Position numbers and translations under genes: made by a program
In this document: piece by piece, positions 9,917 through 42,854 of the stretch
How positions within the stretch are numbered: the first letter of the stretch is position 1
How the letters are laid out: each line of letters starts with the position of its first letter
Origin: Escherichia coli
Lineage (GTDB): Bacteria; Pseudomonadota; Gammaproteobacteria; Enterobacterales; Enterobacteriaceae
Length of the DNA stretch: 64,000 bases
Assembly (NCBI RefSeq): GCF_016903815.1
Contig: NZ_CP069973.1
Direction: 5' to 3' (one strand)
Notes under the pieces: generated by a model
Seen by the model: only the letters and a program-made list of their open reading frames with translations
Databases searched by the model: none
What the model was told of the DNA's origin: nothing

Positions 9917-10912
9917 TTATGGACGCATTATGGACATTCCTGACACCGGGTTAAGAGTCACAGCATCTTGTAAGAAATCCGGTGCAAAGTGTGCGTAGGT
10001 CATAGTTTGCTGAATGTTAGAATGACCCAGGATGCGCTGCAATGTGATTATGTTACCTCCATTCATTATAAAATGTGTGGCAAATGTATGCCTCAAAACA
10101 TGCACTGCCTGTCCGTCAGGTAAATCGGGTTTTACTTCCCTGAGAGCGTTGCGCACTTTGTAGTAACTGGCATTAAAAAGCCTGCCTGAATTTTTGGTCT
10201 TGATCCGTTTAATCAGGTCCTGCGAAACGGGAATTGTCCTGCGCTTTCCGTTTTTAGTTTTCATAAACGTAACCATCTGGTTAATGATGTGTTCAGCTTT
10301 CAAATTAGACACTTCACTCCAGCGTCCACCAGTAGAAAGGCAGACCAGAGTTGCATTTAACTCATCACCATCAAGCATGGATAACAGCCGCGTAATCTCT
10401 TCACTGGACAAAAAAGCCATTTCCGTAACAGCTTCACGTAACCGCTTAACCTCACGGAACGGGTTGTGAGAGTGATATTCACCGGCGTCAATTAACTTGG
10501 TGAACATCCCGCTCATTATTGCCAGATGCCGATTTACGCTGGCTGGTTTTAGGCCATCGTTCATCATTACAACGCGATAATCAGTTATCGTTTTCTTTGT
10601 TAGCTGGTCCGCCCTGGACACTCCCATCTCGGCAAATTTGGCGATTATTGTCGTCAAACGCCCTCGTTCAATATCTCCACGCTCATGTGATTTTCCGTGA
10701 TATATCCACCATCTGCCTAACAACTCTGTAAGAGTTCGGCGGTCGGCCGGCTTCTCCAACCACTCTTTGTTGTGGTAGTTAACCAGGACATGACGTTCGA
10801 ATGCTTGAGCTTCACCTTTAGTTTTAAATTTCCGCCTGATACGTTTTCCATCTGCACCCTGCGGTCTGACGTCCACTTCATAACGACCATCATCGAGCTT
10901 TTTAATAGACAT
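9917..10912 (-). CDS. int: phage tyrosine integrase
   Basis: 331 aa; C-terminal catalytic region with HVLRHTFAT...GHSNIQQTMTYAHF (R-H-R-Y type); adjacent to att core. Confidence 0.9.
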   Translation of the reverse strand: MSIKKLDDGRYEVDVRPQGADGKRIRRKFKTKGEAQAFERHVLVNYHNKEWLEKPADRRTLTELLGRWWIYHGKSHERGDIERGRLTTIIAKFAEMGVSRADQLTKKTITDYRVVMMNDGLKPASVNRHLAIMSGMFTKLIDAGEYHSHNPFREVKRLREAVTEMAFLSSEEITRLLSMLDGDELNATLVCLSTGGRWSEVSNLKAEHIINQMVTFMKTKNGKRRTIPVSQDLIKRIKTKNSGRLFNASYYKVRNALREVKPDLPDGQAVHVLRHTFATHFIMNGGNIITLQRILGHSNIQQTMTYAHFAPDFLQDAVTLNPVSGMSIMRP

Positions 10913-11005
10913 AAAGCCCTCCGATGACGCTGTTTACTTCTACTACTTGAAAATTAATGCAATTTTCTTTCGTACATTTACTGCACACATATGCTGAATA
11001 AATCG

Positions 11006-11317
11006 TCAGCCAGTCTTTTGGTCTGAGTGGTGCAAGGTTGTTGAGTCTTGCCCAATGTGCGCGAGCGCCGGGGCTATTTGTCCGCCAGCGGGATCAGTTT
11101 CATCAAACATGAACCAGTCACGGTACTTGCGAAATCTTTCTGGCTTGAAAAATTTCATACCTGCGTCAAAAGACATCTTTACTTTTCCCTGCTCATATCC
11201 AGCATAGGTGTTGTAGTTAATTCCAGTTAATTCAGCAACTTGCTTCCTTGTCATTCTTTCTGATTCCCGAATAAGTGCGAGTTTCTCTGCTTGAGATGTG
11301 ATTTGTGTATTTGACAT
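11006..11317 (-). CDS. phage immunity repressor (P2 C-like, HTH)
   Basis: Small HTH protein (MTRKQVAELTGINYNTYAGYEQG) divergent from the early operon, next to int as in P2; start codon uncertain (11317 or 11365). Confidence 0.6.
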   Translation of the reverse strand: MSNTQITSQAEKLALIRESERMTRKQVAELTGINYNTYAGYEQGKVKMSFDAGMKFFKPERFRKYRDWFMFDETDPAGGQIAPALAHIGQDSTTLHHSDQKTG

Positions 11318-11421
11318 GAATTGTCGTATCTCGTAATTTATGTTGTATGCGACACGCCAGAACAACGCAGAGCGGCTTCAAATAGCTCTGATTGAATGGC
11401 ACCAAAGTTGAGGATATCAAA

Positions 11422-20686: not shown

Positions 20687-22458
20687 CAGTAAAACTCCAG
20701 AATGGTGGATGTCAGCGGGGTGCTGATACCGGCGGTGAGTGGCTCATTTAACAGGGCGTGCATGGTCGCCCAGGCGAGGTCGGCGTGGCTGGCTTCCTCG
20801 CTGCGGCTGGCTTCATAGGTGGCACTGCGTCCGCTGCTGGTCATGGTCTTGCGGATAGCCATAAACGAGCTGGTGATGTCGGTGGCGCTGACGTCATATT
20901 CCAGACAGCCACGGCGGATAACGTCTTTGGCCTTGAGCACCATTGCGGTTTTCATTTCCGGCGTGTAGCGGATGTCGCGCGCGGCGGGATAGAACGAGCG
21001 CACGAGCTGGAACACGCCGACACCGAGGCCGGTGGCATCAATTCCGATGTATTCGACGTTGTATTTTTCGGTGAGTTTGCGGATGGATTCAGCCTGGGTG
21101 GCAAAGTCCATGCCTTTCCACTGGTGACGCTCAAGTATTCTGAATTTGCCACCGGCCACCACCGGCGGTGCCAGCACCACGCATCCGGCGCTGTCGCCAC
21201 GGTGTGACGGGTCGTAACCAATCCATACCGGGCGGGAGCCGAACGGATTGGCGGCAAACGGTGCATAGTCTTCCCATTCTTCCAGCGTGTCGACCATGCA
21301 GCGTTGCAGCTCCTCGAACGGGAACACCGATGCCTTGTCGTCAACAAATTCACACATGAACAGGTTTTTAAAATCGTCGGCGCTGTTTTCGCGTTTGAGC
21401 TGCTCAATGTCGAACAGCGTGCAGCCGCCTTTCAGGGCGTCCTCAATGGTGACAATCTGTCGCCACTGGCCGTCCGCACAGAGAAGCCCACCGGCAAGGG
21501 CGTTATGACTGACGTCGATTTCCACGCGTTCGGCGGCGCTGGCGCGTCCCCGGTTGAACAGTTCACCCGACCAGAACGGGTAGGCGTCGTGCGCCAGCGT
21601 GGACGGGGTGGAGAAATAGGTCGAGCGCAGGTGACTCTGTGAGGCCATACCTGATGCCACCTTACGCAGTACCTGAAAATTCGGGATCCAGAAAATCTCG
21701 TCGACGTACAGGTCGCCGTTATGGCTCTGTGCGGTGTTGGAGTTGGTGCCGAGAAAAATCAGTTTTGCGCCGTTATTGCCCAGGACAATCGGGTCACCGG
21801 TCAGGTCAACGTCAACCAGCCGGGCAAAGGCGATGATGTATTCGCGGAACACATACGCCTGCGTTTTACTGGCCGACAGAAAAATCTGGTTATGACCGGT
21901 TTTCAGGGCGCGCAGCAGCGCCTCGCGGGAAAAATAAAACGTTGCGCCAATCTGGCGGGATTTCAGGATATCGCGGATGCGGTGCTCAAGCCCGGCGCGA
22001 TACCAGTGCAACTGATAGTCGAAAGACTGCTCAAAGAAAATCTGCTCCAGCTTTTCGATGGCCTCGTCACTGAAAAAATTCTTTTTCGGTTTGCGCCGCC
22101 CGCCTTTGTTGCGGTTAGCGACGTTCGGATTAAGGTCTGCCTCGTTGCCGGTCTGGCTGTAACGGTTGACCCGTGCCAGTCGTTCAATCTGGCGTCCCAG
22201 CAGGTCAATTTCCTTGAAGTCACCGCCGGTTTTCTGCGGTTTGATGATGAGCTGGGTCAGCCGCGCTTCCAGACTCATTTCGACACGGCTGATGGGGGCA
22301 ACGCTGTCCCAGCCGTCGCGCTGTTTCCAGCTCTGCACCGTCGGGCGTTTCATCTGCAACATGGCGGCAATCTGCGGCACGGAAAACCCCTGCCAGTACA
22401 GCAGCGCCGCCTGACGACGCGGGTCGTGTAAAAGAGTGGTGTCTGTGGTGATGGTCAT
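20686..22458 (-). CDS. terminase large (ATPase) subunit (P2 gpP-like)
   Basis: About 590 aa at internal Met (MTITTDTT...); gene order Q-P as in P2. Confidence 0.85.
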   Translation of the reverse strand: MTITTDTTLLHDPRRQAALLYWQGFSVPQIAAMLQMKRPTVQSWKQRDGWDSVAPISRVEMSLEARLTQLIIKPQKTGGDFKEIDLLGRQIERLARVNRYSQTGNEADLNPNVANRNKGGRRKPKKNFFSDEAIEKLEQIFFEQSFDYQLHWYRAGLEHRIRDILKSRQIGATFYFSREALLRALKTGHNQIFLSASKTQAYVFREYIIAFARLVDVDLTGDPIVLGNNGAKLIFLGTNSNTAQSHNGDLYVDEIFWIPNFQVLRKVASGMASQSHLRSTYFSTPSTLAHDAYPFWSGELFNRGRASAAERVEIDVSHNALAGGLLCADGQWRQIVTIEDALKGGCTLFDIEQLKRENSADDFKNLFMCEFVDDKASVFPFEELQRCMVDTLEEWEDYAPFAANPFGSRPVWIGYDPSHRGDSAGCVVLAPPVVAGGKFRILERHQWKGMDFATQAESIRKLTEKYNVEYIGIDATGLGVGVFQLVRSFYPAARDIRYTPEMKTAMVLKAKDVIRRGCLEYDVSATDITSSFMAIRKTMTSSGRSATYEASRSEEASHADLAWATMHALLNEPLTAGISTPLTSTILEFY

Positions 22459-28899: not shown

Positions 28900-29685
28900 T
28901 TATGAGTGATTTTTATTTGATGCTTTGTATTCTAAAACCTTCTTATTGGCGTAAAAGAATTTTGTATATGACAGGAATATAACCAGACCTGAAGTGAAAT
29001 AGACGAGGGATAGTATTAATAATGCTTTTTTGTGACTGTTATTGTCTTTAATCTCCTGGCTTAACCATTCGGAGTCCTCCTCGTTTAACTGTAAGAGCTT
29101 ATTGCAGGCGATCTCAGGAAGTGTGTCTTTTATAAATACGTTTTGCAGTCTCTTGCAATCGGCAAGGCTATAAGTTTTATTAAATTCAACTGCTTTATTT
29201 TTGAAGGATAAAAGAACTTTGTCACTATAAACATAGTACATCATGTTTTTATATGGTATGCCTATGGCATCCCTTACTATAACGGATTGTTCGTTGTGTA
29301 TGTAACATGCGAGGAGAATGTAAAAAATACTGGCCAGAATTACAATTATTGTTTTAATTACGTGTGGTGGTTTTGTTATGTCACCCCAGATGCGAGTAAG
29401 GAAAAAATACGATGTTTTTAGTTTTCCATCAATCAGTCCCTGCTGTATCATTCTCACATTTTCAATGCCTGATACATTGATTCCGTTAATTATTTTAAAT
29501 AGTTGAATGTCGCGCCACTCGCGGTCAAGTCTTTTTAATTTTTTGTCTGAATATCCAAAATTGAGATAATGTGCAATAAGCCTCATAAGGTTACTTTTAC
29601 CAAAGCTAAAAAATGCTAATACTGCAAAGCTACAAAGGAAAAAAACGATTAGCCCCCACACATTAGTCACATTATAGCTGACCAT
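28900..29685 (-). CDS. cargo membrane protein (three predicted TM helices), function unknown
   Basis: 261 aa, AT-rich, opposite orientation to flanking late genes, at the P2 orf30 variable position between S and V. Confidence 0.5.
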   Translation of the reverse strand: MVSYNVTNVWGLIVFFLCSFAVLAFFSFGKSNLMRLIAHYLNFGYSDKKLKRLDREWRDIQLFKIINGINVSGIENVRMIQQGLIDGKLKTSYFFLTRIWGDITKPPHVIKTIIVILASIFYILLACYIHNEQSVIVRDAIGIPYKNMMYYVYSDKVLLSFKNKAVEFNKTYSLADCKRLQNVFIKDTLPEIACNKLLQLNEEDSEWLSQEIKDNNSHKKALLILSLVYFTSGLVIFLSYTKFFYANKKVLEYKASNKNHS

Positions 29686-32194: not shown

Positions 32195-34219
32195 ATGAGC
32201 ACAAAATTCAAAACCGTTATCACCACTGCCGGTGCAGCAAAGCTGGCAGCGGCAACCGCGCCGGGAGGGCGGAAGGTCAACATTACCACGATGGCCGTCG
32301 GGGATGGCGGTGGTAAATTGCCTGTCCCGGATGCCGGACAGACCGGGCTTATCCACGAAGTCTGGCGACATGCGCTGAACAAAATCAGCCAGGACAAACG
32401 AAACAGTAATTATATTATCGCAGAGCTGGTTATTCCGCCGGAGGTGGGCGGTTTCTGGATGCGTGAGCTTGGCCTGTACGATGATGCGGGAACGTTGATT
32501 GCCGTGGCGAACATGGCCGAAAGTTATAAGCCTGCCCTTGCCGAAGGCTCAGGGCGTTCGCAGACCTGCCGCATGGTCATCATCGTCAGCAGTGTGGCCT
32601 CAGTGGAGCTGACCATTGACACCACAACGGTGATGGCAACGCAGGATTATGTTGATGACAAAATTGCAGAACATGAACAGTCACGACGTCACCCTGACGC
32701 CTCGCTGACCGCAAAAGGTTTTACTCAGTTAAGCAGTGCGACCAACAGCACGTCTGAAACACTGGCTGCAACGCCAAAAGCCGTTAAGACGGTAATGGAT
32801 GAAACGAACAAGAAAGCGCCATTAAACAGCCCTGCACTGACCGGAACGCCAACGACGCCAACTGCGACAAAGGGGACTAATAATACTCAGATCGCAAACA
32901 CGGCTTTCGTTATGACCGCGATTGCCGCCCTTGTAGACTCGTCACCTGACGCACTGAATACGCTGAACGAGCTGGCAGCGGCGCTGGGTAACGACCCGAA
33001 TTTTGCTACCACCATGACTAATGCGCTTGCGGGTAAGCAACCGAAAGATGCTACCCTGACGGCGCTGGCGGGGCTTGCTACTGCGGCAGACAGGTTTCCG
33101 TATTTTACGGGGAATGATGTTGCCAGTCTGGCAACTCTGACAAAAGTCGGGCGGGATATTCTTGCGAAATCGACCGTTGCCGCCGTTATCGAATATCTCG
33201 GTTTACAGGAAACGGTAAACCGAGCCGGGAACGCCGTGCAAAAAAATGGCGATACCTTGTCCGGTGGACTTACTTTTGAAAACGACTCAATCCTTGCCTG
33301 GATTCGAAATACTGACTGGGCGAAGATTGGATTTAAAAATGATGCCGATGGTGACACTGATTCATACATGTGGTTTGAAGCAGGCGACAACGGCAATGAA
33401 TATTTCAAATGGAGAAGCCGCCAGAGCACCACAACAAAAGACCTGATGAATCTTAAATGGGATGCTTTGTATGTTCTTGTTAAAGCCCTTTTCAGCAGTG
33501 AAGTAAAAATATCGACAGTCAATGCACTGAGGATATTTAATTCATCTTTTGGTGCTATTTTTCGTCGTTCTGAAGAATGCCTGCATATCATCCCTACACG
33601 AGAGAATGAGGGAGAAAATGGTGATATAGGGCCACTACGCCCCTTTACGCTTAATCTCAGAACTGGTCGGATAAGCATGGGGCATGGTCTTGATGTTACA
33701 GGGGATATATTTGCAAAACGTTTTGCAATTAACAGTAGTACCGGCATGTGGATTCATATGCGTGACCAGAATGTTATTTTGGGACGCAATGCGGTATCCA
33801 CCGATGGTGCGCAGGCATTACTTCGTCAGGACCACGCTGATCGCAAATTTATGATTGGTGGACTGGGGAATAAGCAATTTGGCATCTACATGATTAATAA
33901 CTCAAGGACAGCCAATGGCACCGATGGTCAGGCGTACATGGACAACAATGGCAACTGGCTTTGTGGCTCGCAAGTTATTCCTGGCAACTATGGCAATTTT
34001 GATTCCAGATATGTGAAAGATGTTCGACTTGGTTCACAGCAATATTATGGAGTGAACAACTGGCAAACATGGAATTTCCAGTGCCCGTCAGGTCATGTAT
34101 TGTCTGGTATTAATGTTCAGGATACAGGGTCCAACTCTGCCGATAATATAGCGGGCGTTTATTACAGACCCGTTCAAAAGTATATAAATGGCACCTGGTA
34201 TAATGTAGCGAGCGTTTAA
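32195..34219 (+). CDS. tail fiber protein H
   Basis: 674 aa; conserved N-terminal baseplate-attachment region and Thr/Ala-rich repeats, divergent C-terminal receptor-binding part. Confidence 0.8.
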
Positions 34220-34748: not shown

Positions 34749-35038
34749 GTTGTATGATATCTGGAGTGAGCTAACGTATCTATGGCACAGAGTAAAACTT
34801 AATCTGACAGTCTGCTCTGTACCAAAAGCGGAACTTGCTTACATCGTGCTATGTTAGTTTGCTGGGAGCAGGTCATTATCTACGTGATTGCTATTTTATA
34901 ACTTGGATAAAATGGGGGATGAACATAATATCGAGACAGTGATTGCAGAGTTAGTCATTATAGGCGGGCATCAGTTCATGCCGGATCTCTAATGCAATTA
35001 TCAGGAAAATATGGGACGTTTTATCAATCAGAGGAAAT

Positions 35039-36265
35039 ATGTTACAGTTCAGCTTTGTATCAAATGACGTTGTTATGACTTACGACGGTGACAGCGGAGA
35101 ACAAATAATTTGGGTTTGGGAGAGTTTAAATAAATTTCAAACAGTATGCATTTCACGCATTTTTAACTTTCAACTCCAGGACTTGAGAAACCCACCGTCA
35201 ACCGTTCAGGATTTTAATGATTATGAATATTCCTTTAATTTTGGCACGCTTAATAATGAATACATAACAGTTCCGGGACGGATTCTAAGCATTAATCGAG
35301 ATGTCCTTATACATAAGTCCATCAAGCTTGAAAGGAAAGTATTTGCGTCAGAACGCAACGTCTCCATTTTTGGTCGGCTTTCAAAACTACTCGATCACAC
35401 TAATCCCATCATCATCGGAGGAGATAAGTCGGAAGCTATACCAAAAAGCGTATTCCAGGAGTTGCAAAGTAAATTCCCCAACACAGGGGAACTGGATCGC
35501 TATGCTAATGCAAGGGTTCACGCTATTCTCGCAGGTTATCTTGATGGTATGAAAGATGCTCGCGAACGGTATGAACATTACCTAAACAGAAAAACAGTGA
35601 TCAGAAAAACCGACAAACTGGATTTAGAAGTTTTAAATAAGCTCGAAATTGAGAAATATACACTCATAAGAGACATTATCCAGGATGCGTTGAATAACAA
35701 AACTAACTTGTCTGAAGATGACTGGCAGAGCCTGATGATACCCTTCATCACATTACTTTTTCCAAAATATATCAAGGTCCTCGAGAAGGTTAAAATTTTC
35801 GACTATTACTCTAATCCTTCGGCTAAAACAAATCGGTTTATAGACATTGCACTGGTGGATGCAAACGGCAACCTTGATATCATCGAAGTCAAAAAGCCGT
35901 TTGATGATAAGATCCTTCGCAAGACGCCCTATCGCGACAACTATATTCCTACATCAGAACTTAGCGGCGGTATTATGCAGGCTGAAAAGTATATTTTTCA
36001 TTTATCTAAATGGGGTGTTAAGGGTGAAAAAGAGCTTACGAATGCCTACAAGAATTCTCTGCCAGCGGGAATGTGTATTCGTATATCTAACCCAAAAGCC
36101 ATCATCATTGTCGGGCGCGATCAGATAGCGAACGGTAACATGACCGACGGTCAGTTGCTTGATTTTGAGATAATCAAACGTAAGTACGCCAACATGATAG
36201 ACATATTGACGTACGACGACCTGTTGCGTCGACTTAATAATACGATTGAAGCATTGAAAGGTTGA
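35039..36265 (+). CDS. cargo protein with C-terminal PD-(D/E)xK nuclease-like motif (possibly Shedu-like), function unknown
   Basis: 408 aa, AT-rich; motif RFIDIALVDANGNLDIIEVKKP (D...D...E-x-K) near residue 275-295; located at the P2 Z/fun variable position between G and FI. Confidence 0.5.
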   Translation: MLQFSFVSNDVVMTYDGDSGEQIIWVWESLNKFQTVCISRIFNFQLQDLRNPPSTVQDFNDYEYSFNFGTLNNEYITVPGRILSINRDVLIHKSIKLERKVFASERNVSIFGRLSKLLDHTNPIIIGGDKSEAIPKSVFQELQSKFPNTGELDRYANARVHAILAGYLDGMKDARERYEHYLNRKTVIRKTDKLDLEVLNKLEIEKYTLIRDIIQDALNNKTNLSEDDWQSLMIPFITLLFPKYIKVLEKVKIFDYYSNPSAKTNRFIDIALVDANGNLDIIEVKKPFDDKILRKTPYRDNYIPTSELSGGIMQAEKYIFHLSKWGVKGEKELTNAYKNSLPAGMCIRISNPKAIIIVGRDQIANGNMTDGQLLDFEIIKRKYANMIDILTYDDLLRRLNNTIEALKG

Positions 36266-36426
36266 ATGTCCATGAGGTTCACACCCACAACGGGGAGCAG
36301 GTCACTTCCTATTGTTTGATTGACATACCATAACGTCTGCTTTTGGCTCAAAGCAGACTGTCTGATTTGATAGCTTTTGGGCTATGTAAATTGTCAGTTG
36401 AAAAATGAGTGAGTACAAATCAGGAC

Positions 36427-36551: not shown

Positions 36552-37742
36552 ATGAGCGACTATCATCATGGCGTGCAGGTGCTGGAGATTAACGACGGCA
36601 CCCGCGTCATTTCCACCGTATCCACGGCCATTGTCGGCATGGTCTGCACGGCCAGCGATGCGGATGCGGAAATCTTCCCCCTCAATAAACCGGTACTGAT
36701 TACCAATGTGCAGAGCGCAATTGCAAAGGCTGGTAAAAAAGGCACGCTGGCGGCATCGTTGCAGGCCATCGCCGACCAGTCAAAACCGGTCACCGTTGTC
36801 GTACGTGTGGAAGACGGCACCGGCGACGACGAGGAAACGAAACTCGCGCAGACCGTTTCCAATATCATCGGCACCACCGACGAAAACGGTCAGTACACCG
36901 GACTGAAAGCCCTGCTGGCGGCGGAGTCGGTAACCGGTGTTAAACCGCGTATTCTCGGCGTGCCGGGACTGGATACCAAAGAGGTGGCTGTTGCACTGGC
37001 ATCAGTCTGTCAGAAGCTGCGCGCTTTCGGGTATATCAGCGCATGGGGCTGTAAAACCATTTCCGAGGTGAAAGCCTACCGTCAGAATTTCAGCCAGCGT
37101 GAGCTGATGGTCATCTGGCCGGATTTCCTCGCATGGGATACGGTCACCAGTACCACCGCCACCGCGTATGCCACCGCCCGTGCGCTGGGGCTGCGCGCTA
37201 AAATCGACCAGGAGCAGGGCTGGCATAAAACGCTGTCCAATGTCGGGGTGAACGGTGTTACCGGCATCAGCGCCTCTGTATTCTGGGATTTGCAGGAGTC
37301 CGGTACTGATGCTGACCTGCTTAACGAGTCAGGCGTCACAACGCTGATTCGCCGTGACGGTTTCCGCTTCTGGGGTAACCGTACCTGCTCTGATGACCCG
37401 CTGTTCCTCTTTGAAAACTACACCCGCACCGCGCAGGTGATGGCCGACACGATGGCTGAGGCGCACATGTGGGCGGTGGACAAGCCCATCACCGCAACGC
37501 TGATTCGCGACATCGTTGACGGCATCAATGCCAAATTCCGTGAGCTGAAAACAAACGGCTATATCGTGGATGCGACCTGCTGGTTCAGCGAAGAATCCAA
37601 CGATGCGGAAACCCTCAAGGCCGGAAAACTGTATATCGACTACGACTATACACCGGTGCCTCCTCTTGAAAACCTGACCCTGCGCCAGCGTATTACCGAT
37701 AAATACCTGGCAAATCTGGTCACCTCGGTTAACAGCAATTAA
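36552..37742 (+). CDS. contractile tail sheath protein FI
   Basis: 396 aa, size and position as P2 FI. Confidence 0.85.
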   Translation: MSDYHHGVQVLEINDGTRVISTVSTAIVGMVCTASDADAEIFPLNKPVLITNVQSAIAKAGKKGTLAASLQAIADQSKPVTVVVRVEDGTGDDEETKLAQTVSNIIGTTDENGQYTGLKALLAAESVTGVKPRILGVPGLDTKEVAVALASVCQKLRAFGYISAWGCKTISEVKAYRQNFSQRELMVIWPDFLAWDTVTSTTATAYATARALGLRAKIDQEQGWHKTLSNVGVNGVTGISASVFWDLQESGTDADLLNESGVTTLIRRDGFRFWGNRTCSDDPLFLFENYTRTAQVMADTMAEAHMWAVDKPITATLIRDIVDGINAKFRELKTNGYIVDATCWFSEESNDAETLKAGKLYIDYDYTPVPPLENLTLRQRITDKYLANLVTSVNSN

Positions 37743-37754
37743 GGAGCCTGACCG

Positions 37755-38273
37755 ATGGCAATGCCGCGCAAACTCAAGTTAATGAACGTCTTTCTGAACG
37801 GCTACAGCTATCAGGGCGTCGCGAAGTCCGTCACGCTACCAAAACTGACCCGTAAGCTCGAAAACTATCGCGGTGCGGGGATGAACGGCAGCGCACCGGT
37901 AGACCTCGGCCTTGATGACGATGCGCTGTCAATGGAGTGGTCGCTCGGTGGCTTCCCGGATTCGGTTATCTGGGAGCTTTACGCCGCAACCGGTGTGGAT
38001 TCCGTACCGATTCGTTTTGCAGGCTCTTACCAGCGCGACGATACCGGCGAAACGGTGGCCGTCGAGGTGGTCATGCGTGGACGTCAGAAAGAAATCGACA
38101 CCGGCGAGGGCAAACAGGGAGAAGATACCGAGTCGAAAATCTCCGTGGTCTGCACCTATTTCCGGCTGACGATGGACGGTAAGGAGCTGGTCGAAATCGA
38201 CACCATCAACATGATTGAGAAGGTGAACGGCGTCGACCGGCTGGAGCAACACCGCCGCAATATCGGCCTGTGA
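37755..38273 (+). CDS. tail tube protein FII
   Basis: 172 aa, size as P2 FII. Confidence 0.85.
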   Translation: MAMPRKLKLMNVFLNGYSYQGVAKSVTLPKLTRKLENYRGAGMNGSAPVDLGLDDDALSMEWSLGGFPDSVIWELYAATGVDSVPIRFAGSYQRDDTGETVAVEVVMRGRQKEIDTGEGKQGEDTESKISVVCTYFRLTMDGKELVEIDTINMIEKVNGVDRLEQHRRNIGL

Positions 38274-38329
38274 TTTTCATCCGGTCAGCCTGGCTGACCG
38301 GTTAACCCCGATTCAGAAGTGAGAAAACC

Positions 38330-38605
38330 ATGAACAAAGAAAATGTGATTACCCTGGACAATCCGGTCAAGCGTGGTGAGCAGGTTATCGAACAGGTCAC
38401 GCTGATGAAACCCAATGCCGGGACGCTGCGCGGTGTCAGTCTGGCAGCGGTCGCGAACTCTGAAGTCGATGCACTGATTAAGGTGCTGCCGCGCATGACG
38501 GCACCGATGCTGACCGAGCAGGAAGTCGCCGCGCTGGAACTGCCTGACCTTGTGGCGCTGGCCGGTAAGGTGGTCGGTTTTTTGTCGCCGAACTCGGTGC
38601 AGTGA
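38330..38605 (+). CDS. tail assembly chaperone E
   Basis: 91 aa; slippery site GGTTTTTTG near its 3' end. Confidence 0.7.
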   Translation: MNKENVITLDNPVKRGEQVIEQVTLMKPNAGTLRGVSLAAVANSEVDALIKVLPRMTAPMLTEQEVAALELPDLVALAGKVVGFLSPNSVQ

Positions 38606-38757
38606 CGTTTCCAAAAAATCTGTCGGTCGATGACCTGATGGCGGATGTGGCAGTGATATTTCACTGGCCGCCATCAGAACTGTATCCCATGAGCCTGACC
38701 GAACTCATCACATGGCGCGAAAAGGCGCTCCGGCGAAGCGGAAACACGAATGAGTAA
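38330..38757 (+). CDS. tail assembly chaperone E+E' (-1 programmed frameshift product, predicted)
   Basis: Slippery heptamer-like T-run at 38575-38583; the -1 frame stays open to TAA at 38755-38757, overlapping the T start. Confidence 0.45.
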
Positions 38758-41197
38758 CAATGTAAAATTACAGGTATTGCTCAGGGCTGTTGACCAGGCA
38801 TCCCGCCCGTTTAAATCCATCCGCACAGCGAGCAAATCGCTGTCGGGGGATATCCGGGAAACACAAAAATCACTGCGCGAGCTGAACGGTCAGGCATCCC
38901 GTATTGAGGGATTCCGCAAGACCAGTGCACAGCTCGCCGTGACTGGTCATGCACTTGAAAAGGCTCGGCAGGAGGCCGAAGCCCTTGCCACACAGTTTAA
39001 AAATACCGAACGTCCGACCCGTGCTCAGGCGAAAGTGCTGGAATCCGCAAAGCGTGCGGCGGAGGACTTACAGGCGAAATATAACCGCCTGACAGATTCC
39101 ATTAAACGCCAGCAGCGGGAACTGGCCGCTGTGGGAATTAATACCCGCAATCTTGCACATGATGAGCAGGGACTGAAAAACCGTATCAGTGAAACCACCG
39201 CACAGCTTAACCGTCAGCGTGACGCGCTGGCGCGTGTCAGTGCACAACAGGCAAAACTTAACGCAGTAAAACAGCGTTATCAGGCCGGAAAGGAACTGGC
39301 CGGAAATATGGCCTCGGTGGGCGCTGCCGGTGTGGGGATTGCTGCTGCGGGAACGATGGCCGGAGTTAAGTTGCTGATGCCCGGTTATGAGTTTGCGCAG
39401 AAAAACTCAGAATTGCAGGCTGTGCTCGGTGTGGCAAAAGACTCCGCCGAAATGGCTGCACTACGCAAGCAGGCGCGCCAGCTCGGCAACAATACCGCAG
39501 CCTCGGCAGATGATGCAGCCGGTGCGCAGATTATTATTGCGAAAGCCGGTGGGGATGTTGATGCCATTCAGGCGGCAACGCCGGTCACGCTGAATATGGC
39601 GCTGGCGAACCGTCGCACGATGGAAGAAAACGCCGCCCTGCTGATGGGGATGAAATCCGCCTTTCAGCTTTCAAACGATAAGGTCGCTCATATCGGGGAT
39701 GTTCTCTCCATGACGATGAACAAAACCGCCGCCGATTTTGATGGCATGAGCGATGCGCTGACCTATGCCGCACCTGTGGCAAAAAATGCTGGTGTCAGCA
39801 TTGAAGAAACCGCCGCAATGGTCGGGGCGCTGCATGATGCAAAAATTACCGGTTCAATGGCGGGGACGGGAAGCCGTGCCGTGTTAAGCCGCCTGCAGGC
39901 ACCGACGGGAAAAGCATGGGATGCACTGAAAGAGCTTGGCGTGAAAACCTCAGACAGTAAAGGGAATACTCGACCAGTATTTACCATTCTGAAAGAAATG
40001 CAGGCCAGTTTTGAGAAAAACCGGCTCGGTACTGCCCAGCAGGCTGAATACATGAAAACTATTTTCGGGGAGGAGGCCAGCTCAGCCGCCGCCGTGCTGA
40101 TGACTGCCGCCTCAACTGGAAAGCTGGACAAACTGACCGCTGCGTTTAAAGCCTCAGACGGGAAGACCGCCGAGCTGGTAAATATCATGCAGGACAACCT
40201 CGGCGGTGACTTTAAGGAGTTTCAGTCCGCTTATGAGGCGGTGGGGACTGACCTGTTTGACCAGCAGGAAGGCGCACTGCGTAAGCTCACGCAGACGGCC
40301 ACAAAGTATGTGTTAAAACTCGACGGCTGGATACAGAAAAACAAATCACTGGCGTTAACCATCGGCATCATTGTCGGTGGTGCACTGGCACTGATTGGTG
40401 TCATCGGTGCCATTGGCCTCGTAGCCTGGCCGGTTATCACCGGCATCAATGCCATCATCGCGGCAGCAGGCGCAATGGGAGCAATCTTCACGACGGTTGG
40501 CAGTGCTGTTATGACGGCCATCGGGGCGATTAGCTGGCCGGTTGTGGCCGTGGTGGCCGCCATTGTCGCCGGGGCGTTACTTATCCGTAAATACTGGGAG
40601 CCTGTCAGCGCATTCTTTGGCGGTGTGGTTGAAGGGCTGAAAGCGGCATTTGCGCCGGTGGGGGAACTGTTCACGCCACTTAAGCCGGTGTTTGACTGGC
40701 TGGGCGAAAAGTTACAGGCCGCGTGGCAGTGGTTTAAAAACCTGATTGCCCCGGTCAAAGCCACCCGGGACACCCTGAACCGTTGCCGTGATACGGGCGT
40801 CATGTTCGGGCAGGCACTGGCTGACGCGTTGATGCTGCCGCTTAATGCGTTCAACAAACTGCGCAGCGGTATTGACTGGGTACTGGAAAAACTCGGTGTT
40901 ATCAACAAAGAGTCAGGCACGCTTGACCAGACCGCCGCCAGAACTCATGCCGCCACGTATGGCACCGGTGGTTATATTCCGGCGACCAGCTCTTATGCAG
41001 GCTATCAGGCTTATCAGCCGGTTACGGCACCGGCTGGCCGCTCTTATGTGGACCAGAGTAAAAACGAATATCACATCAGTCTGACGGGCGGTACTGCGCC
41101 GGGGACACAGCTTGACCGCCAGTTACAGGATGCGCTCGAAAAATACGAGCGGGATAAACGTGCGCGCGCCCGTGCCAGCATGATGCATGACGGTTAA
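38750..41197 (+). CDS. tail tape-measure protein T
   Basis: 815 aa, coiled-coil N-terminus, Gly/Ala-rich hydrophobic segment; size as P2 T. Confidence 0.85.
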   Translation: MSNNVKLQVLLRAVDQASRPFKSIRTASKSLSGDIRETQKSLRELNGQASRIEGFRKTSAQLAVTGHALEKARQEAEALATQFKNTERPTRAQAKVLESAKRAAEDLQAKYNRLTDSIKRQQRELAAVGINTRNLAHDEQGLKNRISETTAQLNRQRDALARVSAQQAKLNAVKQRYQAGKELAGNMASVGAAGVGIAAAGTMAGVKLLMPGYEFAQKNSELQAVLGVAKDSAEMAALRKQARQLGNNTAASADDAAGAQIIIAKAGGDVDAIQAATPVTLNMALANRRTMEENAALLMGMKSAFQLSNDKVAHIGDVLSMTMNKTAADFDGMSDALTYAAPVAKNAGVSIEETAAMVGALHDAKITGSMAGTGSRAVLSRLQAPTGKAWDALKELGVKTSDSKGNTRPVFTILKEMQASFEKNRLGTAQQAEYMKTIFGEEASSAAAVLMTAASTGKLDKLTAAFKASDGKTAELVNIMQDNLGGDFKEFQSAYEAVGTDLFDQQEGALRKLTQTATKYVLKLDGWIQKNKSLALTIGIIVGGALALIGVIGAIGLVAWPVITGINAIIAAAGAMGAIFTTVGSAVMTAIGAISWPVVAVVAAIVAGALLIRKYWEPVSAFFGGVVEGLKAAFAPVGELFTPLKPVFDWLGEKLQAAWQWFKNLIAPVKATRDTLNRCRDTGVMFGQALADALMLPLNAFNKLRSGIDWVLEKLGVINKESGTLDQTAARTHAATYGTGGYIPATSSYAGYQAYQPVTAPAGRSYVDQSKNEYHISLTGGTAPGTQLDRQLQDALEKYERDKRARARASMMHDG

Positions 41198-41211: not shown

Positions 41212-41691
41212 ATGATGCTCGCGTTAGGTATGTTTGTTTTTATGCGCCAGACGCTGCCACACCAGACCATGCAGCGTGAATCAGATTATCGCTGGCCGTC
41301 AAATTCCCGTATCGGTAAACGGGATGCCTACCAGTTTCTCGGTGTTGGCGAGGAAAACATCACGCTTGCCGGCGTGCTTTATCCCGAACTGACCGGCGGC
41401 AAGCTGACGATGACCACGCTCAGGCTGATGGCAGAGGAAGGCCGGGCGTGGCCGTTGCTGGATGGCACTGGCATGATTTACGGTATGTATGTCATCAGCA
41501 GGGTGAGTGAAACAGGGAGTATTTTCTTTGCAGACGGCACACCCCGGAAAATTGATTTTACGCTGTCACTCACCCGCGTTGATGAATCACTGGCCGCGCT
41601 TTATGGTGATATCGGTAAACAGGCGGAATCGCTCATCGGTAAGGCTGGCAGTCTGGCGACCAGATTCACAGGTATGACGGGGGCGGGATAA
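41212..41691 (+). CDS. tail protein U
   Basis: 159 aa, size as P2 U. Confidence 0.75.
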   Translation: MMLALGMFVFMRQTLPHQTMQRESDYRWPSNSRIGKRDAYQFLGVGEENITLAGVLYPELTGGKLTMTTLRLMAEEGRAWPLLDGTGMIYGMYVISRVSETGSIFFADGTPRKIDFTLSLTRVDESLAALYGDIGKQAESLIGKAGSLATRFTGMTGAG

Positions 41692-42854
41692 TGCTGGATG
41701 CACTGACATTTGATGCAGGCAGTACGCTGACGCCGGATTACATGCTGATGCTCGACAGCAGGGATATTACCGGCAATATCAGCGGCCGTCTGATGAGCAT
41801 GACCCTGACGGATAACCGGGGCTTTGAGGCTGACCAGCTTGATATTGAACTGAACGATGCCGACGGGCAGGTCGGGCTGCCGGTTCGTGGCGCTGTCCTG
41901 ACGGTGTATATCGGCTGGAAAGGTTTTGCCCTGGTATGCAAAGGGAAATTCACCGTTGATGAGGTAGAACACCGGGGCGCGCCGGATGTGGTCACCATCC
42001 GGGCCCGGAGTGCAGATTTTCGTGGCACGCTCAATTCCCGCCGTGAAGGCTCCTGGCATGACACCACGCTCGGTGCGATTGTTGAGGCGATAGCCTCCCG
42101 TAACAGGCTGGAAGCCAGTGTCGCTCCGTCACTGGCCGGAATTAAAATCCCGCACATCGACCAGTCGCAGGAGTCTGATGCAAAATTCCTGACCCGCCTT
42201 GCTGAACGCAACGGCGGTGAGGTGTCGGTAAAAATGGGAAAACTGTTGTTTCTCAAAGCGGGGCAGGGGGTGACGTCCAGCGGTAAAAAAATCCCGCAGG
42301 TCACCATAACCCGCAGCGACGGCGACCGCCATCATTTTGCGATTGCTGACCGTGGAGCCTATACCGGCGTAACGGCAAAGTGGTTACACACCAAAGACCC
42401 GAAGCCACAAAAGCAGAAGGTAAAACTGAAACGAAAAAAGAAAGAGAAACACCTGCGCGCACTGGAGCACCCCAAAGCGAAACCAGTCACGCAGAAGAAA
42501 GCGCCAAAAGTACCGGAAGCGCGCGAAGGTGAATACATGGCCGGTGAGGCTGACAACGTTTTTGCCCTGACCACGGTATATGCCACGAAAGCACAGGCCA
42601 TGCGCGCCGCTCAGGCGAAGTGGGATAAACTGCAACGGGGTGTAGCGGAGTTCTCCATCAGTCTGGCTACTGGTCGGGCAGATATTTACACGGAAACGCC
42701 GGTCAAAGTGTCAGGCTTTAAGCGCGTCATAGACGAGCAGGACTGGACAATCACTAAGGTGACACATTTTCTGAATAATAGCGGCTTCACGACGTCCCTG
42801 GAGCTTGAGGTCAGGCTTTCTGATGTGGAGTACGAAACCGAAGATGATGAGTGA
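41691..42854 (+). CDS. tail protein D (late-gene product)
   Basis: 387 aa, size as P2 D. Confidence 0.8.
   Translation: MLDALTFDAGSTLTPDYMLMLDSRDITGNISGRLMSMTLTDNRGFEADQLDIELNDADGQVGLPVRGAVLTVYIGWKGFALVCKGKFTVDEVEHRGAPDVVTIRARSADFRGTLNSRREGSWHDTTLGAIVEAIASRNRLEASVAPSLAGIKIPHIDQSQESDAKFLTRLAERNGGEVSVKMGKLLFLKAGQGVTSSGKKIPQVTITRSDGDRHHFAIADRGAYTGVTAKWLHTKDPKPQKQKVKLKRKKKEKHLRALEHPKAKPVTQKKAPKVPEAREGEYMAGEADNVFALTTVYATKAQAMRAAQAKWDKLQRGVAEFSISLATGRADIYTETPVKVSGFKRVIDEQDWTITKVTHFLNNSGFTTSLELEVRLSDVEYETEDDE

What the first reader, a model, noticed from the sequence alone, without database searches (positions are those of the whole stretch)
38575..38757. Predicted -1 programmed frameshift producing E+E' tail chaperone
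A slippery T-run (GGTTTTTTG) sits near the end of gene E, and the -1 frame remains open for about 58 more codons until a stop that overlaps the tape-measure start. This matches the conserved G/GT-type frameshift of tail assembly chaperones.
Basis: partly seen in the sequence, partly recalled or inferred. Interest (0 to 1): 0.3.

Follow-up and report, generated by a model that had tools for sequence, protein, structure and literature searches.

The report
Known P2 phage E/E+E' frameshift

Summary

- **Sequence.** Window 38330-38605 is gene E (91 aa). The heptamer T_TTT_TTG lies at 38578-38584 in exact X_XXY_YYZ phase. The -1 frame stays open for 57 codons to TAA at 38755-38757, which overlaps the tape-measure ATG at 38750. 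The predicted fusion is 142 aa.
- **Identity to P2.** The locus is 98-99% identical to phage P2, whose reference record annotates E+E' and a "site of -1 translational frameshift" at this spot. The fusion differs from P2's by one residue (N29S).
- **Domains.** E matches Pfam Phage_TAC_7 and E' matches Phage_P2_GpE.
- **Relatives.** In 16 relatives (35-80% identity, from Burkholderia to Vibrio) E' is always in the -1 frame. Every one has an in-phase slippery heptamer. The base before TTT is kept as T whatever amino acid is encoded.
- **Stimulators.** No stimulatory RNA structure was found.
- **Prevalence.** The locus occurs in 1582 of 5426 complete E. coli genomes, where automatic annotation wrongly splits it into two genes.

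Best explanation: a minority of ribosomes slip -1 at U_UUU_UUG, making E and E+E' in a fixed ratio for tail assembly on the tape measure.

Noticed in passing: the prophage carries Shedu, a type VI retron-like pair and an FRG-domain gene in the two P2 cargo hotspots.

The parts
38330..38605 (+). Gene E (91 aa), zero-frame product; tail assembly chaperone
   Evidence: ORF and translation. Pfam Phage_TAC_7 at 2.6e-12, 47 bits against a cut-off of 25. PHROG 103 'tail protein' at 2.6e-45. Aligns with the P2 E CDS 19430-19705.
38578..38584 (+). Slippery heptamer T_TTT_TTG (X_XXY_YYZ), site of the -1 shift
   Evidence: In phase with E. It is the only in-phase heptamer where both frames are open. Equivalent to the P2 misc_feature 'site of -1 translational frameshift' at 19685, the base after the G. 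An in-phase heptamer is present in 16 of 16 relatives, and 12 of them have the identical TTTTTTG.
38584..38757 (+). E' segment: 57 codons plus TAA read in the -1 frame, reached only by slipping from E
   Evidence: Translation. Pfam Phage_P2_GpE at 2.1e-22, 78.7 bits against a cut-off of 23. PHROG 1756 at 1.4e-28. 100% identical in protein to P2 E'. Conserved in 16 relatives.
38330..38757 (+). Composite E+E' coding region (142-aa fusion: 38330-38584 joined to 38584-38757)
   Evidence: The 429-nt composite translates without a stop to 142 aa. It has one difference from P2 E+E', N29S. The AlphaFold2 model has pLDDT 90.3 and pTM 0.79.
38750..41197 (+). Gene T, tape-measure protein (815 aa); its ATG overlaps the E' stop (ATGAGTAA). 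Inferred binding partner of E and E+E'
   Evidence: ORF. Aligns with P2 T 19850-22297. The binding role is inferred from the lambda G/GT/H model (Atkins et al. 2016, PMC5009743).
37755..38273 (+). Gene FII, tail tube protein (172 aa), immediately upstream. Inferred partner of the E' domain
   Evidence: ORF. P2 FII 18855-19373. PGAP calls it 'phage major tail tube protein' in the same prophage. The partner role is inferred by analogy only.

Best explanation
Programmed -1 ribosomal frameshifting in gene E of a P2-like (Peduovirus) prophage.

Mechanism. Most ribosomes translate E from 38330 to the TGA at 38603-38605 and release the 91-aa gpE. A minority slip one base back when tRNA-Phe on UUU and tRNA-Leu on UUG occupy the P and A sites of U_UUU_UUG (38578-38584). 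They re-pair on UUU_UUU and continue in the -1 frame for 57 codons to the TAA at 38755-38757. The product is the 142-aa gpE+E', whose junction is ...GFL|VAELG....

Function. Both proteins share the N-terminal chaperone domain. Only the fusion carries the C-terminal GpE domain. By analogy with lambda gpG/gpGT, the shared domain coats the tape-measure protein T, and the E' domain recruits the tube protein FII. The tube and sheath then polymerise to the length set by T, and the chaperones are not retained in the virion. The slip fixes the ratio of the two products.

What is shown and what is inferred. Shown here: the sequence anatomy, the homology and the comparative conservation. Shown by others for the identical P2 sequence: the fusion is made, and E' is essential (Christie et al. 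2002, J Bacteriol 184:6522; the roughly 10% efficiency is quoted from my own memory of that paper, which is not in the held library). Inferred: the binding partners and the absence from virions.
For: 1. DNA is 98-99% identical to P2, and identical across the slip region.
2. The P2 RefSeq record annotates E+E' as a two-piece join with a -1 frameshift site.
3. Lynch et al. 2010 (PMC3091744) state that the P2 frameshift occurs at TTTTTTG and gives 91-aa E and 142-aa E+E'. The same numbers were obtained here.
4. E' has its own Pfam family, Phage_P2_GpE (2e-22), and E matches Phage_TAC_7.
5. tblastn of the fused protein finds 418 phage records. In 401 of them one place covers at least 80% of the query, and the listed hits match as two pieces.
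6. In 16 sampled relatives at 35-80% identity, from 10 or more host genera, E' is always in the -1 frame. Every one has an in-phase heptamer in the overlap: TTTTTTG in 12, and TTTTTTT, TTTTTTC, AAATTTT and GGGAAAG once each.
7. Synonymous sites are constrained. The codon before TTT always ends in T (GGT 10 times, ACT 2, CTT 2, AGT 1), across four different amino acids. TTT and TTG are kept even in high-GC Burkholderia, Ralstonia, Pseudomonas and Stenotrophomonas phages.
8. The E' protein sequence is strongly conserved (DDLMADIAxIFHWPP...ELxxWRExAxxRSG), whereas the zero-frame tails after the slip vary in length from 5 to 22 aa and in sequence.
9. The gene order FI-FII-E-T-U-D is intact, with P2-sized products.
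Against: No frameshift product was measured for this copy; the case rests on identity with P2.

No stimulatory RNA element was detected. The downstream 80 nt fold no better than shuffles (z = 0.00), and there is no consistent structure upstream or downstream in relatives. Efficiency must therefore rest on the heptamer alone, which agrees with what Lynch et al. report for P2.

A GTG at 38602 could in principle start E' on its own, and NCBI's pipeline annotates it that way.

Confidence: 0.95

Rival explanations
1. E' is an independent small gene (51 aa) started at GTG 38602, four bases before the end of E, as NCBI's automatic annotation has it ('GpE family phage tail protein'). No frameshift is involved.
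For: the ORF listing reports a GTG-started 51-aa ORF at 38602-38757. PGAP and several phage records annotate exactly this ORF as a separate CDS. A product started at this GTG would still contain the whole Pfam GpE domain, which spans E' residues 19-54.
Against: The start is not conserved. In 16 relatives the first ATG, GTG or TTG in the E' frame lies at E' residue 13-41. It is usually the conserved Met inside the domain (DDLMAD), and never the position used here. There is no purine-rich Shine-Dalgarno sequence in the 15 nt before 38602 (CGAACTCGGTGCA). The -1-frame residues between the heptamer and 38602 (V-A-E-x-G) are conserved among relatives, which would be unexplained if they were untranslated. 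The heptamer and its synonymous sites are conserved. For the identical P2 sequence, fusion analysis showed translation as an extension of E (Christie et al. 2002, cited; the detail is from my own knowledge).
Confidence: 0.02
2. The fusion arises by transcriptional slippage. RNA polymerase adds one extra U while copying the run of six T, possibly helped by the weak hairpin that abuts the run. A fraction of mRNAs then encode E+E' in one frame, with junction ...GFF-VAELG....
For: The slip site is a homopolymeric T6 run. A terminator-like scan flags a hairpin at 38557-38578 directly followed by the T run (8 pairs, 4 of them G-U). The geometry resembles the stem-loop-assisted slippage described for some IS elements (my own knowledge). 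Several relatives also have a stem ending at ...CCGGU just before the run.
Against: Six T is shorter than the runs of about 8-9 or more that usually give appreciable slippage by E. coli RNA polymerase (established knowledge). The upstream hairpin is no more stable than in shuffles (z = -0.70 here; -1.5 to +1.1 in relatives). Two relatives use heteropolymeric heptamers (A_AAT_TTT in P88-like, G_GGA_AAG in Mannheimia PHL101) that fit tandem tRNA slippage but not polymerase stuttering. The strict X_XXY_YYZ phase in all 17 sequences is needed for ribosomal slippage and is irrelevant for transcriptional slippage.
Confidence: 0.03

Closest known systems
Bacteriophage P2 genes E and E+E' (NC_001895, P2p26/P2p25; Christie et al. 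2002)
   Same: Same genes. DNA is 98-99% identical, and identical from 116 nt upstream of the heptamer to 28 nt downstream. Same heptamer, same 91-aa and 142-aa products, same overlap of the E' stop with the T start, and same FI-FII-E-T-U-D operon. The fusion protein differs only by N29S.
   Different: Ten nucleotide substitutions in the 491 nt compared and one conservative amino-acid change. The surrounding prophage has a different integrase and immunity region and different cargo genes. None of this touches the frameshift.
Phage 186 orf51/orf52 (gene H) and other Peduoviridae E/E' pairs (KS5, KS14, KL3, Smp131 and others)
   Same: Homologous E and E' domains, E' in the -1 frame, T_TTT_TTG in phase, and position between tube and tape measure. 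Lynch et al. 2010 report conservation of the site in Burkholderia phages.
   Different: 35-80% protein identity. N-terminal extensions of up to about 35 aa. Zero-frame tails of 5-22 aa. A few use other heptamers: T_TTT_TTT, T_TTT_TTC, A_AAT_TTT, G_GGA_AAG.
Lambda gpG/gpGT and the general tail-assembly-chaperone frameshift of long-tailed phages (Levin et al. 1993; Xu, Hendrix and Duda 2004, 2013, 2014)
   Same: Two overlapping ORFs between the major tail or tube gene and the tape-measure gene. A -1 slip near the end of the first ORF gives a minor fusion product. The functional logic is a fixed ratio between a chaperone that coats the tape measure and a fusion that recruits the tube subunit (PMC5009743).

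Membership tests
P2-type E / E+E' tail assembly chaperone pair (Peduoviridae) | Upstream ORF homologous to gpE | tested here: met
   Pfam PF10109 Phage_TAC_7 at 47 bits, above the 25-bit cut-off. PHROG 103 at 2.6e-45. 90 of 91 residues identical to P2 gpE.
P2-type E / E+E' tail assembly chaperone pair (Peduoviridae) | Overlapping ORF in the -1 frame homologous to E' | tested here: met
   Pfam PF06528 Phage_P2_GpE at 78.7 bits, above the 23-bit cut-off. The frame offset is -1. Protein identical to P2 E'.
P2-type E / E+E' tail assembly chaperone pair (Peduoviridae) | In-phase slippery heptamer (T_TTT_TTG) inside the stretch where both frames are open | tested here: met
   38578-38584, phase X_XXY_YYZ. 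It is the only such heptamer in the 36-nt overlap.
P2-type E / E+E' tail assembly chaperone pair (Peduoviridae) | Located between the tail tube gene (FII) and the tape-measure gene (T), with the E' end overlapping the T start | tested here: met
   FII 37755-38273, E 38330-38605, T 38750-41197. TAA at 38755-38757 overlaps the ATG at 38750.
P2-type E / E+E' tail assembly chaperone pair (Peduoviridae) | E' has no independent translation start of its own | tested here: inconclusive
   A GTG exists at 38602, without a recognisable Shine-Dalgarno sequence, and PGAP uses it. No start codon is conserved at or before this position in 16 relatives, which argues against independent initiation. Only an experiment can exclude it for this copy.
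P2-type E / E+E' tail assembly chaperone pair (Peduoviridae) | The fusion protein is actually made (about 10% of gpE) and is essential for tail assembly | not testable with these tools
   Reported for P2 by Christie et al. 2002 (cited in PMC3091744; efficiency and essentiality are from my own knowledge). The P2 RefSeq note reads 'essential tail protein'. The sequence here is identical around the site.
Lambda G/GT-type tail assembly chaperones (general class, Xu et al. 2004) | Two overlapping ORFs joined by a programmed frameshift, placed between the major tail or tube gene and the tape-measure gene | tested here: met
   The class is described in PMC5009743 and PMC3091744.
Lambda G/GT-type tail assembly chaperones (general class, Xu et al. 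2004) | Chaperone fold shared with solved tail assembly chaperones (for example HK97, 2ob9) | tested here: inconclusive
Lambda G/GT-type tail assembly chaperones (general class, Xu et al. 2004) | Shared domain binds the tape measure, the extension binds the tube subunit, and both are absent from virions | not testable with these tools
   Inferred by analogy with lambda. No interaction data were obtainable here.

The most novel reading that the evidence does not exclude
The least ordinary reading not excluded is that the sequence just upstream of the heptamer tunes how often the fusion is made, so the site is not a bare heptamer as currently described. Two elements are candidates: the near-perfect Shine-Dalgarno-like TAAGGTGGT at 38566-38574, which ends 4 nt before the heptamer, and the weak hairpin at 38557-38578 that abuts the U run. 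They could act through rRNA pairing, or through polymerase pausing or slippage. An RGGTG/RGGTT motif recurs 4-10 nt upstream in about 11 of 17 relatives. It coincides with conserved Lys/Glu-Val codons, is absent in several relatives, and the hairpin is not significant.
Probability: 0.05. Interest if true: 0.3.

Novelty: already known. Interest (0 to 1): 0.05.

Why it matters
It matters little scientifically. This is a near-identical copy of the experimentally characterised P2 E/E+E' recoding site, present in about 29% of complete E. coli genomes.

The practical value is for annotation. NCBI's pipeline and many phage records split the locus into 'phage tail assembly protein' plus a free-standing 51-aa 'GpE family phage tail protein' started at a non-conserved GTG. 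It should be one CDS joined by a -1 shift. The comparative table (17 sequences; conserved phase; third-position T kept across Gly, Thr, Leu and Ser codons) gives a simple rule for annotating the fusion correctly across Peduoviridae.

Tried and rejected
- **Downstream stimulatory structure.** The 80 nt after the heptamer fold at -20.8 kcal/mol, equal to the shuffle mean (z = 0.00). The 45 nt after the heptamer in 17 sequences give z from -2.2 to +0.9 with no common structure. A small hairpin starting 1 nt after the heptamer (CGCCGAACUCGGUG) is too close to act as a classical stimulator and is not conserved in form. Rejected.
- **Upstream hairpin plus T run as terminator or slippage element**. 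Not more stable than shuffles and not conserved. Rejected as a feature and kept only as a low-probability rival.
- **Shine-Dalgarno-like TAAGGTGGT upstream.** Present in many relatives but not all, confounded with conserved K/E-V codons, and the 4-nt spacing is not what is known to stimulate -1 shifts (the spacing rule is my own knowledge). Not pursued.
- **Statistics of the bare pattern.** Not distinctive on its own. My first gene-picking script even discarded E in favour of the longer antisense shadow ORF 38285-38674, so that table was not used.
- **Sequence search of solved structures.** No hit.
- **NCBIfam.** No hit.
- **Foldseek against PDB.** No hit.
- **Rfam, window 9000-44000.** No family at gathering score.
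- **Christie et al. 2002 (PubMed 12426340, PMC135442).** Not in the held library, so it is cited through Lynch et al. 2010 and from memory.
- **'Bacteriophage Assembly' review (PMC3185693).** It says nothing on P2 E/E'.

Full report
**Observation.** Gene E runs from ATG 38330 to TGA 38603-38605 and encodes 91 aa. GGTTTTTTG lies at 38576-38584. In the E frame the codons are GGT TTT TTG, so T_TTT_TTG (38578-38584) is a canonical X_XXY_YYZ slippery heptamer, 18 nt before the E stop.

The -1 frame is open from 38569 to TAA 38755-38757. That gives 57 sense codons after the slip, and this stop overlaps the ATG (38750) of the 815-aa tape-measure gene (ATGAGTAA). Joining 38330-38584 to 38584-38757 gives an uninterrupted 142-aa protein. 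The heptamer is the only in-phase slippery heptamer in the 36 nt where both frames are open.

**Is it more than chance?** The pattern alone is not. TTTTTTG occurs 33 times in the window against 22.8 +/- 4.8 expected. Of 241 arbitrary ORFs of at least 60 aa, 8 show an in-phase heptamer near their end with a -1 frame running at least 49 codons beyond the stop, mostly spurious ORFs that run into real genes. The case rests on homology and conservation, which are overwhelming.

**Identity.** The 521 bases around the site match 74 phage records at 95-99% identity, all P2-like phages of Escherichia, Yersinia and Salmonella.

- Against the P2 reference (NC_001895) the 491-nt alignment has 10 substitutions. 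It is identical from 116 nt upstream of the heptamer to 28 nt downstream.
- That record annotates E (19430-19705), a two-piece CDS 'E+E'' ('shares amino terminus with gpE; -1 frameshift; essential tail protein'), and a misc_feature 'site of -1 translational frameshift' at 19685. That is the base after the G of the heptamer.
- The fusion predicted here differs from the P2 fusion built the same way by one residue, N29S. E' is identical.
- Lynch et al. 2010 (PMC3091744) state that in P2 the -1 frameshift occurs at TTTTTTG and gives the 91-aa E and the 142-aa E+E', citing Christie et al. 2002 and Xu et al. 2004.
- Pfam places E in Phage_TAC_7 ('tail assembly chaperone proteins, E, or 41 or 14', 2.6e-12). 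It places the -1-frame part in Phage_P2_GpE (2.1e-22). PHROGs gives tail-protein families for both.

**Context.** The window carries a complete P2-like prophage of about 33 kb, from roughly 9.9 to 43.3 kb, in E. coli. It is inserted between pflA and pflB. The late operon FI (36552-37742), FII (37755-38273), E, T (38750-41197), U (41212-41691) and D (41691-42854) is intact. Its products have the P2 sizes, and the DNA is 96.5% identical to P2.

tblastn with the fused 142-aa protein finds 418 phage records. In 401 of them one place covers at least 80% of the query. The hits listed in full match as two pieces, that is in two frames. I fetched 16 relatives spanning 35-80% identity to the fusion: 186, Yersinia, Klebsiella (three), Burkholderia, Ralstonia, Stenotrophomonas, Pseudomonas, Halomonas, Arsenophonus, Aeromonas, P88-like, Vibrio, Acidovorax and Mannheimia.

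- **Frame and heptamer.** In all 16 the E' homologue is in the -1 frame relative to E, and an in-phase X_XXY_YYZ heptamer lies in the overlap. T_TTT_TTG occurs in 12; T_TTT_TTT, T_TTT_TTC, A_AAT_TTT and G_GGA_AAG occur once each.
- **Synonymous sites.** The codon before TTT always ends in T, although it encodes four different amino acids (GGT 10 times, ACT 2, CTT 2, AGT 1). TTT and TTG are retained in phages of high-GC hosts, where these codons are disfavoured (codon preference is established knowledge). This is selection on the nucleotide heptamer, not on the peptide.
- **Protein.** E' is strongly conserved (…DDLMADIAxIFHWPP…ELxxWRExAxxRSG…; W129 invariant). The zero-frame tails after the slip vary from 5 to 22 residues and are not alignable.

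**Mechanism.** The best explanation is tandem tRNA slippage on U_UUU_UUG by a minority of ribosomes, giving E and E+E' in a fixed ratio.

I looked for stimulators and found none. The downstream 80 nt fold exactly as well as shuffles (z = 0.00). Neither the 30 nt upstream nor the 45 nt downstream show a consistent or significant structure in the 17 sequences. This agrees with what Lynch et al. report for P2 and the Burkholderia phages.

A consensus scan flags a weak hairpin (38557-38578, four of eight pairs G-U) that abuts the T run. A Shine-Dalgarno-like TAAGGTGGT ends 4 nt before the heptamer. Neither is conserved across relatives or statistically distinctive.

Function is by analogy with lambda gpG/gpGT (PMC5009743). 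The shared N-terminal domain binds the tape measure T, the E' domain recruits the tube protein FII, and neither stays in the virion. That step is inferred, not shown.

**Rivals.**

- **Independent initiation of E' at GTG 38602.** This is how PGAP and several phage records annotate it. It is contradicted by three things. No start codon is conserved at or before that position in the 16 relatives. There is no Shine-Dalgarno sequence. The -1-frame residues upstream of that GTG are conserved.
- **Transcriptional slippage on the T6 run.** This is contradicted by the short run, by the heteropolymeric heptamers in two relatives, and by the strict codon phase, which only a ribosomal mechanism requires.
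- **Chance.** Excluded by the homology.

**Verdict.** The feature is already known: it is the P2 E/E+E' site itself with one amino-acid change. It occurs in 1582 of 5426 complete E. coli genomes. Interest is low. The only practical point is that automatic annotation mis-splits the gene.

**Noticed outside the finding.** The prophage differs from P2 in four places, two of them the cargo hotspots:

- Z/fun is replaced by a Shedu SduA gene (35039-36265).
- tin/old is replaced by an HTH plus reverse-transcriptase pair typed as a type VI retron (16418-17666), and by an FRG-domain gene (17775-19139, minus strand). Both islands are low in GC.
- The integrase and immunity region is only 66-68% identical to P2.
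- The distal part of the tail fibre gene H differs from P2.

Noticed in passing
window 34836-36332 (ORF 35039-36265, + strand): The P2 Z/fun locus between tail-fibre assembly gene G and sheath gene FI is replaced by a low-GC (about 39%) 408-aa gene. It is a full-length Shedu SduA nuclease (PADLOC PDLC04067 at 1.4e-219; Pfam SduA_C at 3e-33; PGAP 'Shedu immune nuclease family protein' in the same prophage of strain 7/2)..
   Followed up: partly
window 15797-19435 (ORFs 16418-16750 +, 16689-17666 +, 17775-19139 -): The P2 tin/old locus is replaced by a 32-40% GC island. It holds an HTH protein (PADLOC HTH_VI, 7e-30) overlapping a 325-aa reverse transcriptase (RT_VI, 1e-105; Pfam RVT_1), which is a type VI retron-like pair. 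It also holds a convergent 454-aa FRG-domain protein (PDC-S15, 9e-98). No Rfam family, including retron msr/msd RNAs, reached gathering score in 9000-44000, so the retron non-coding RNA was not located..
   Followed up: partly
window 9917-11775 and prophage ends at about 9.9 kb and 43.3 kb: The integrase, repressor and cox region is only 66-68% identical to P2, while the rest of the prophage is 94-98% identical. The prophage sits between pflA and pflB of E. coli. The same insertion is present in strain 7/2 and others. The att core repeat was not identified; the longest exact repeat between the two ends is a 13-mer (9814 and 43269) that may be chance..
   Followed up: partly
window 38602-38757: RefSeq/PGAP and several GenBank phage records annotate E' as a free-standing 51-aa 'GpE family phage tail protein' starting at this GTG, instead of a -1 frameshift fusion with E. 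This is a systematic annotation error, potentially affecting the roughly 1,580 complete E. coli genomes that carry the locus (only one genome's annotation was inspected in full)..
   Followed up: yes
window 38557-38584: A weak hairpin (GCUGGCCG/UGGUCGGU, half of the pairs G-U) ends exactly at the U6 run. It contains a Shine-Dalgarno-like UAAGGUGGU whose 3' end is 4 nt before the heptamer. The terminator scan flags it. It is not more stable than shuffles (z = -0.7), and the motif is present in only about 11 of 17 relatives, where it coincides with conserved Lys/Glu-Val codons..
   Followed up: partly
window 38285-38674, minus strand: A 129-aa antisense ORF, and a second of 120 aa at 38302-38664, lie opposite gene E. 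I take them to be shadow ORFs of the coding strand and ran no search on them. Being longer than E, the first misled a naive longest-ORF gene picker..
   Followed up: no
window 33487-34175 and 28900-29685: The distal part of tail-fibre gene H has no blastn match to P2 between 33487 and 34175, and G is only 88% identical, which suggests a different receptor specificity. The Orf30 position (28900-29685, minus strand, 261 aa, about 41% GC) is P2-like here but holds a different 347-aa gene in the otherwise matching prophage of strain 7/2..
   Followed up: no
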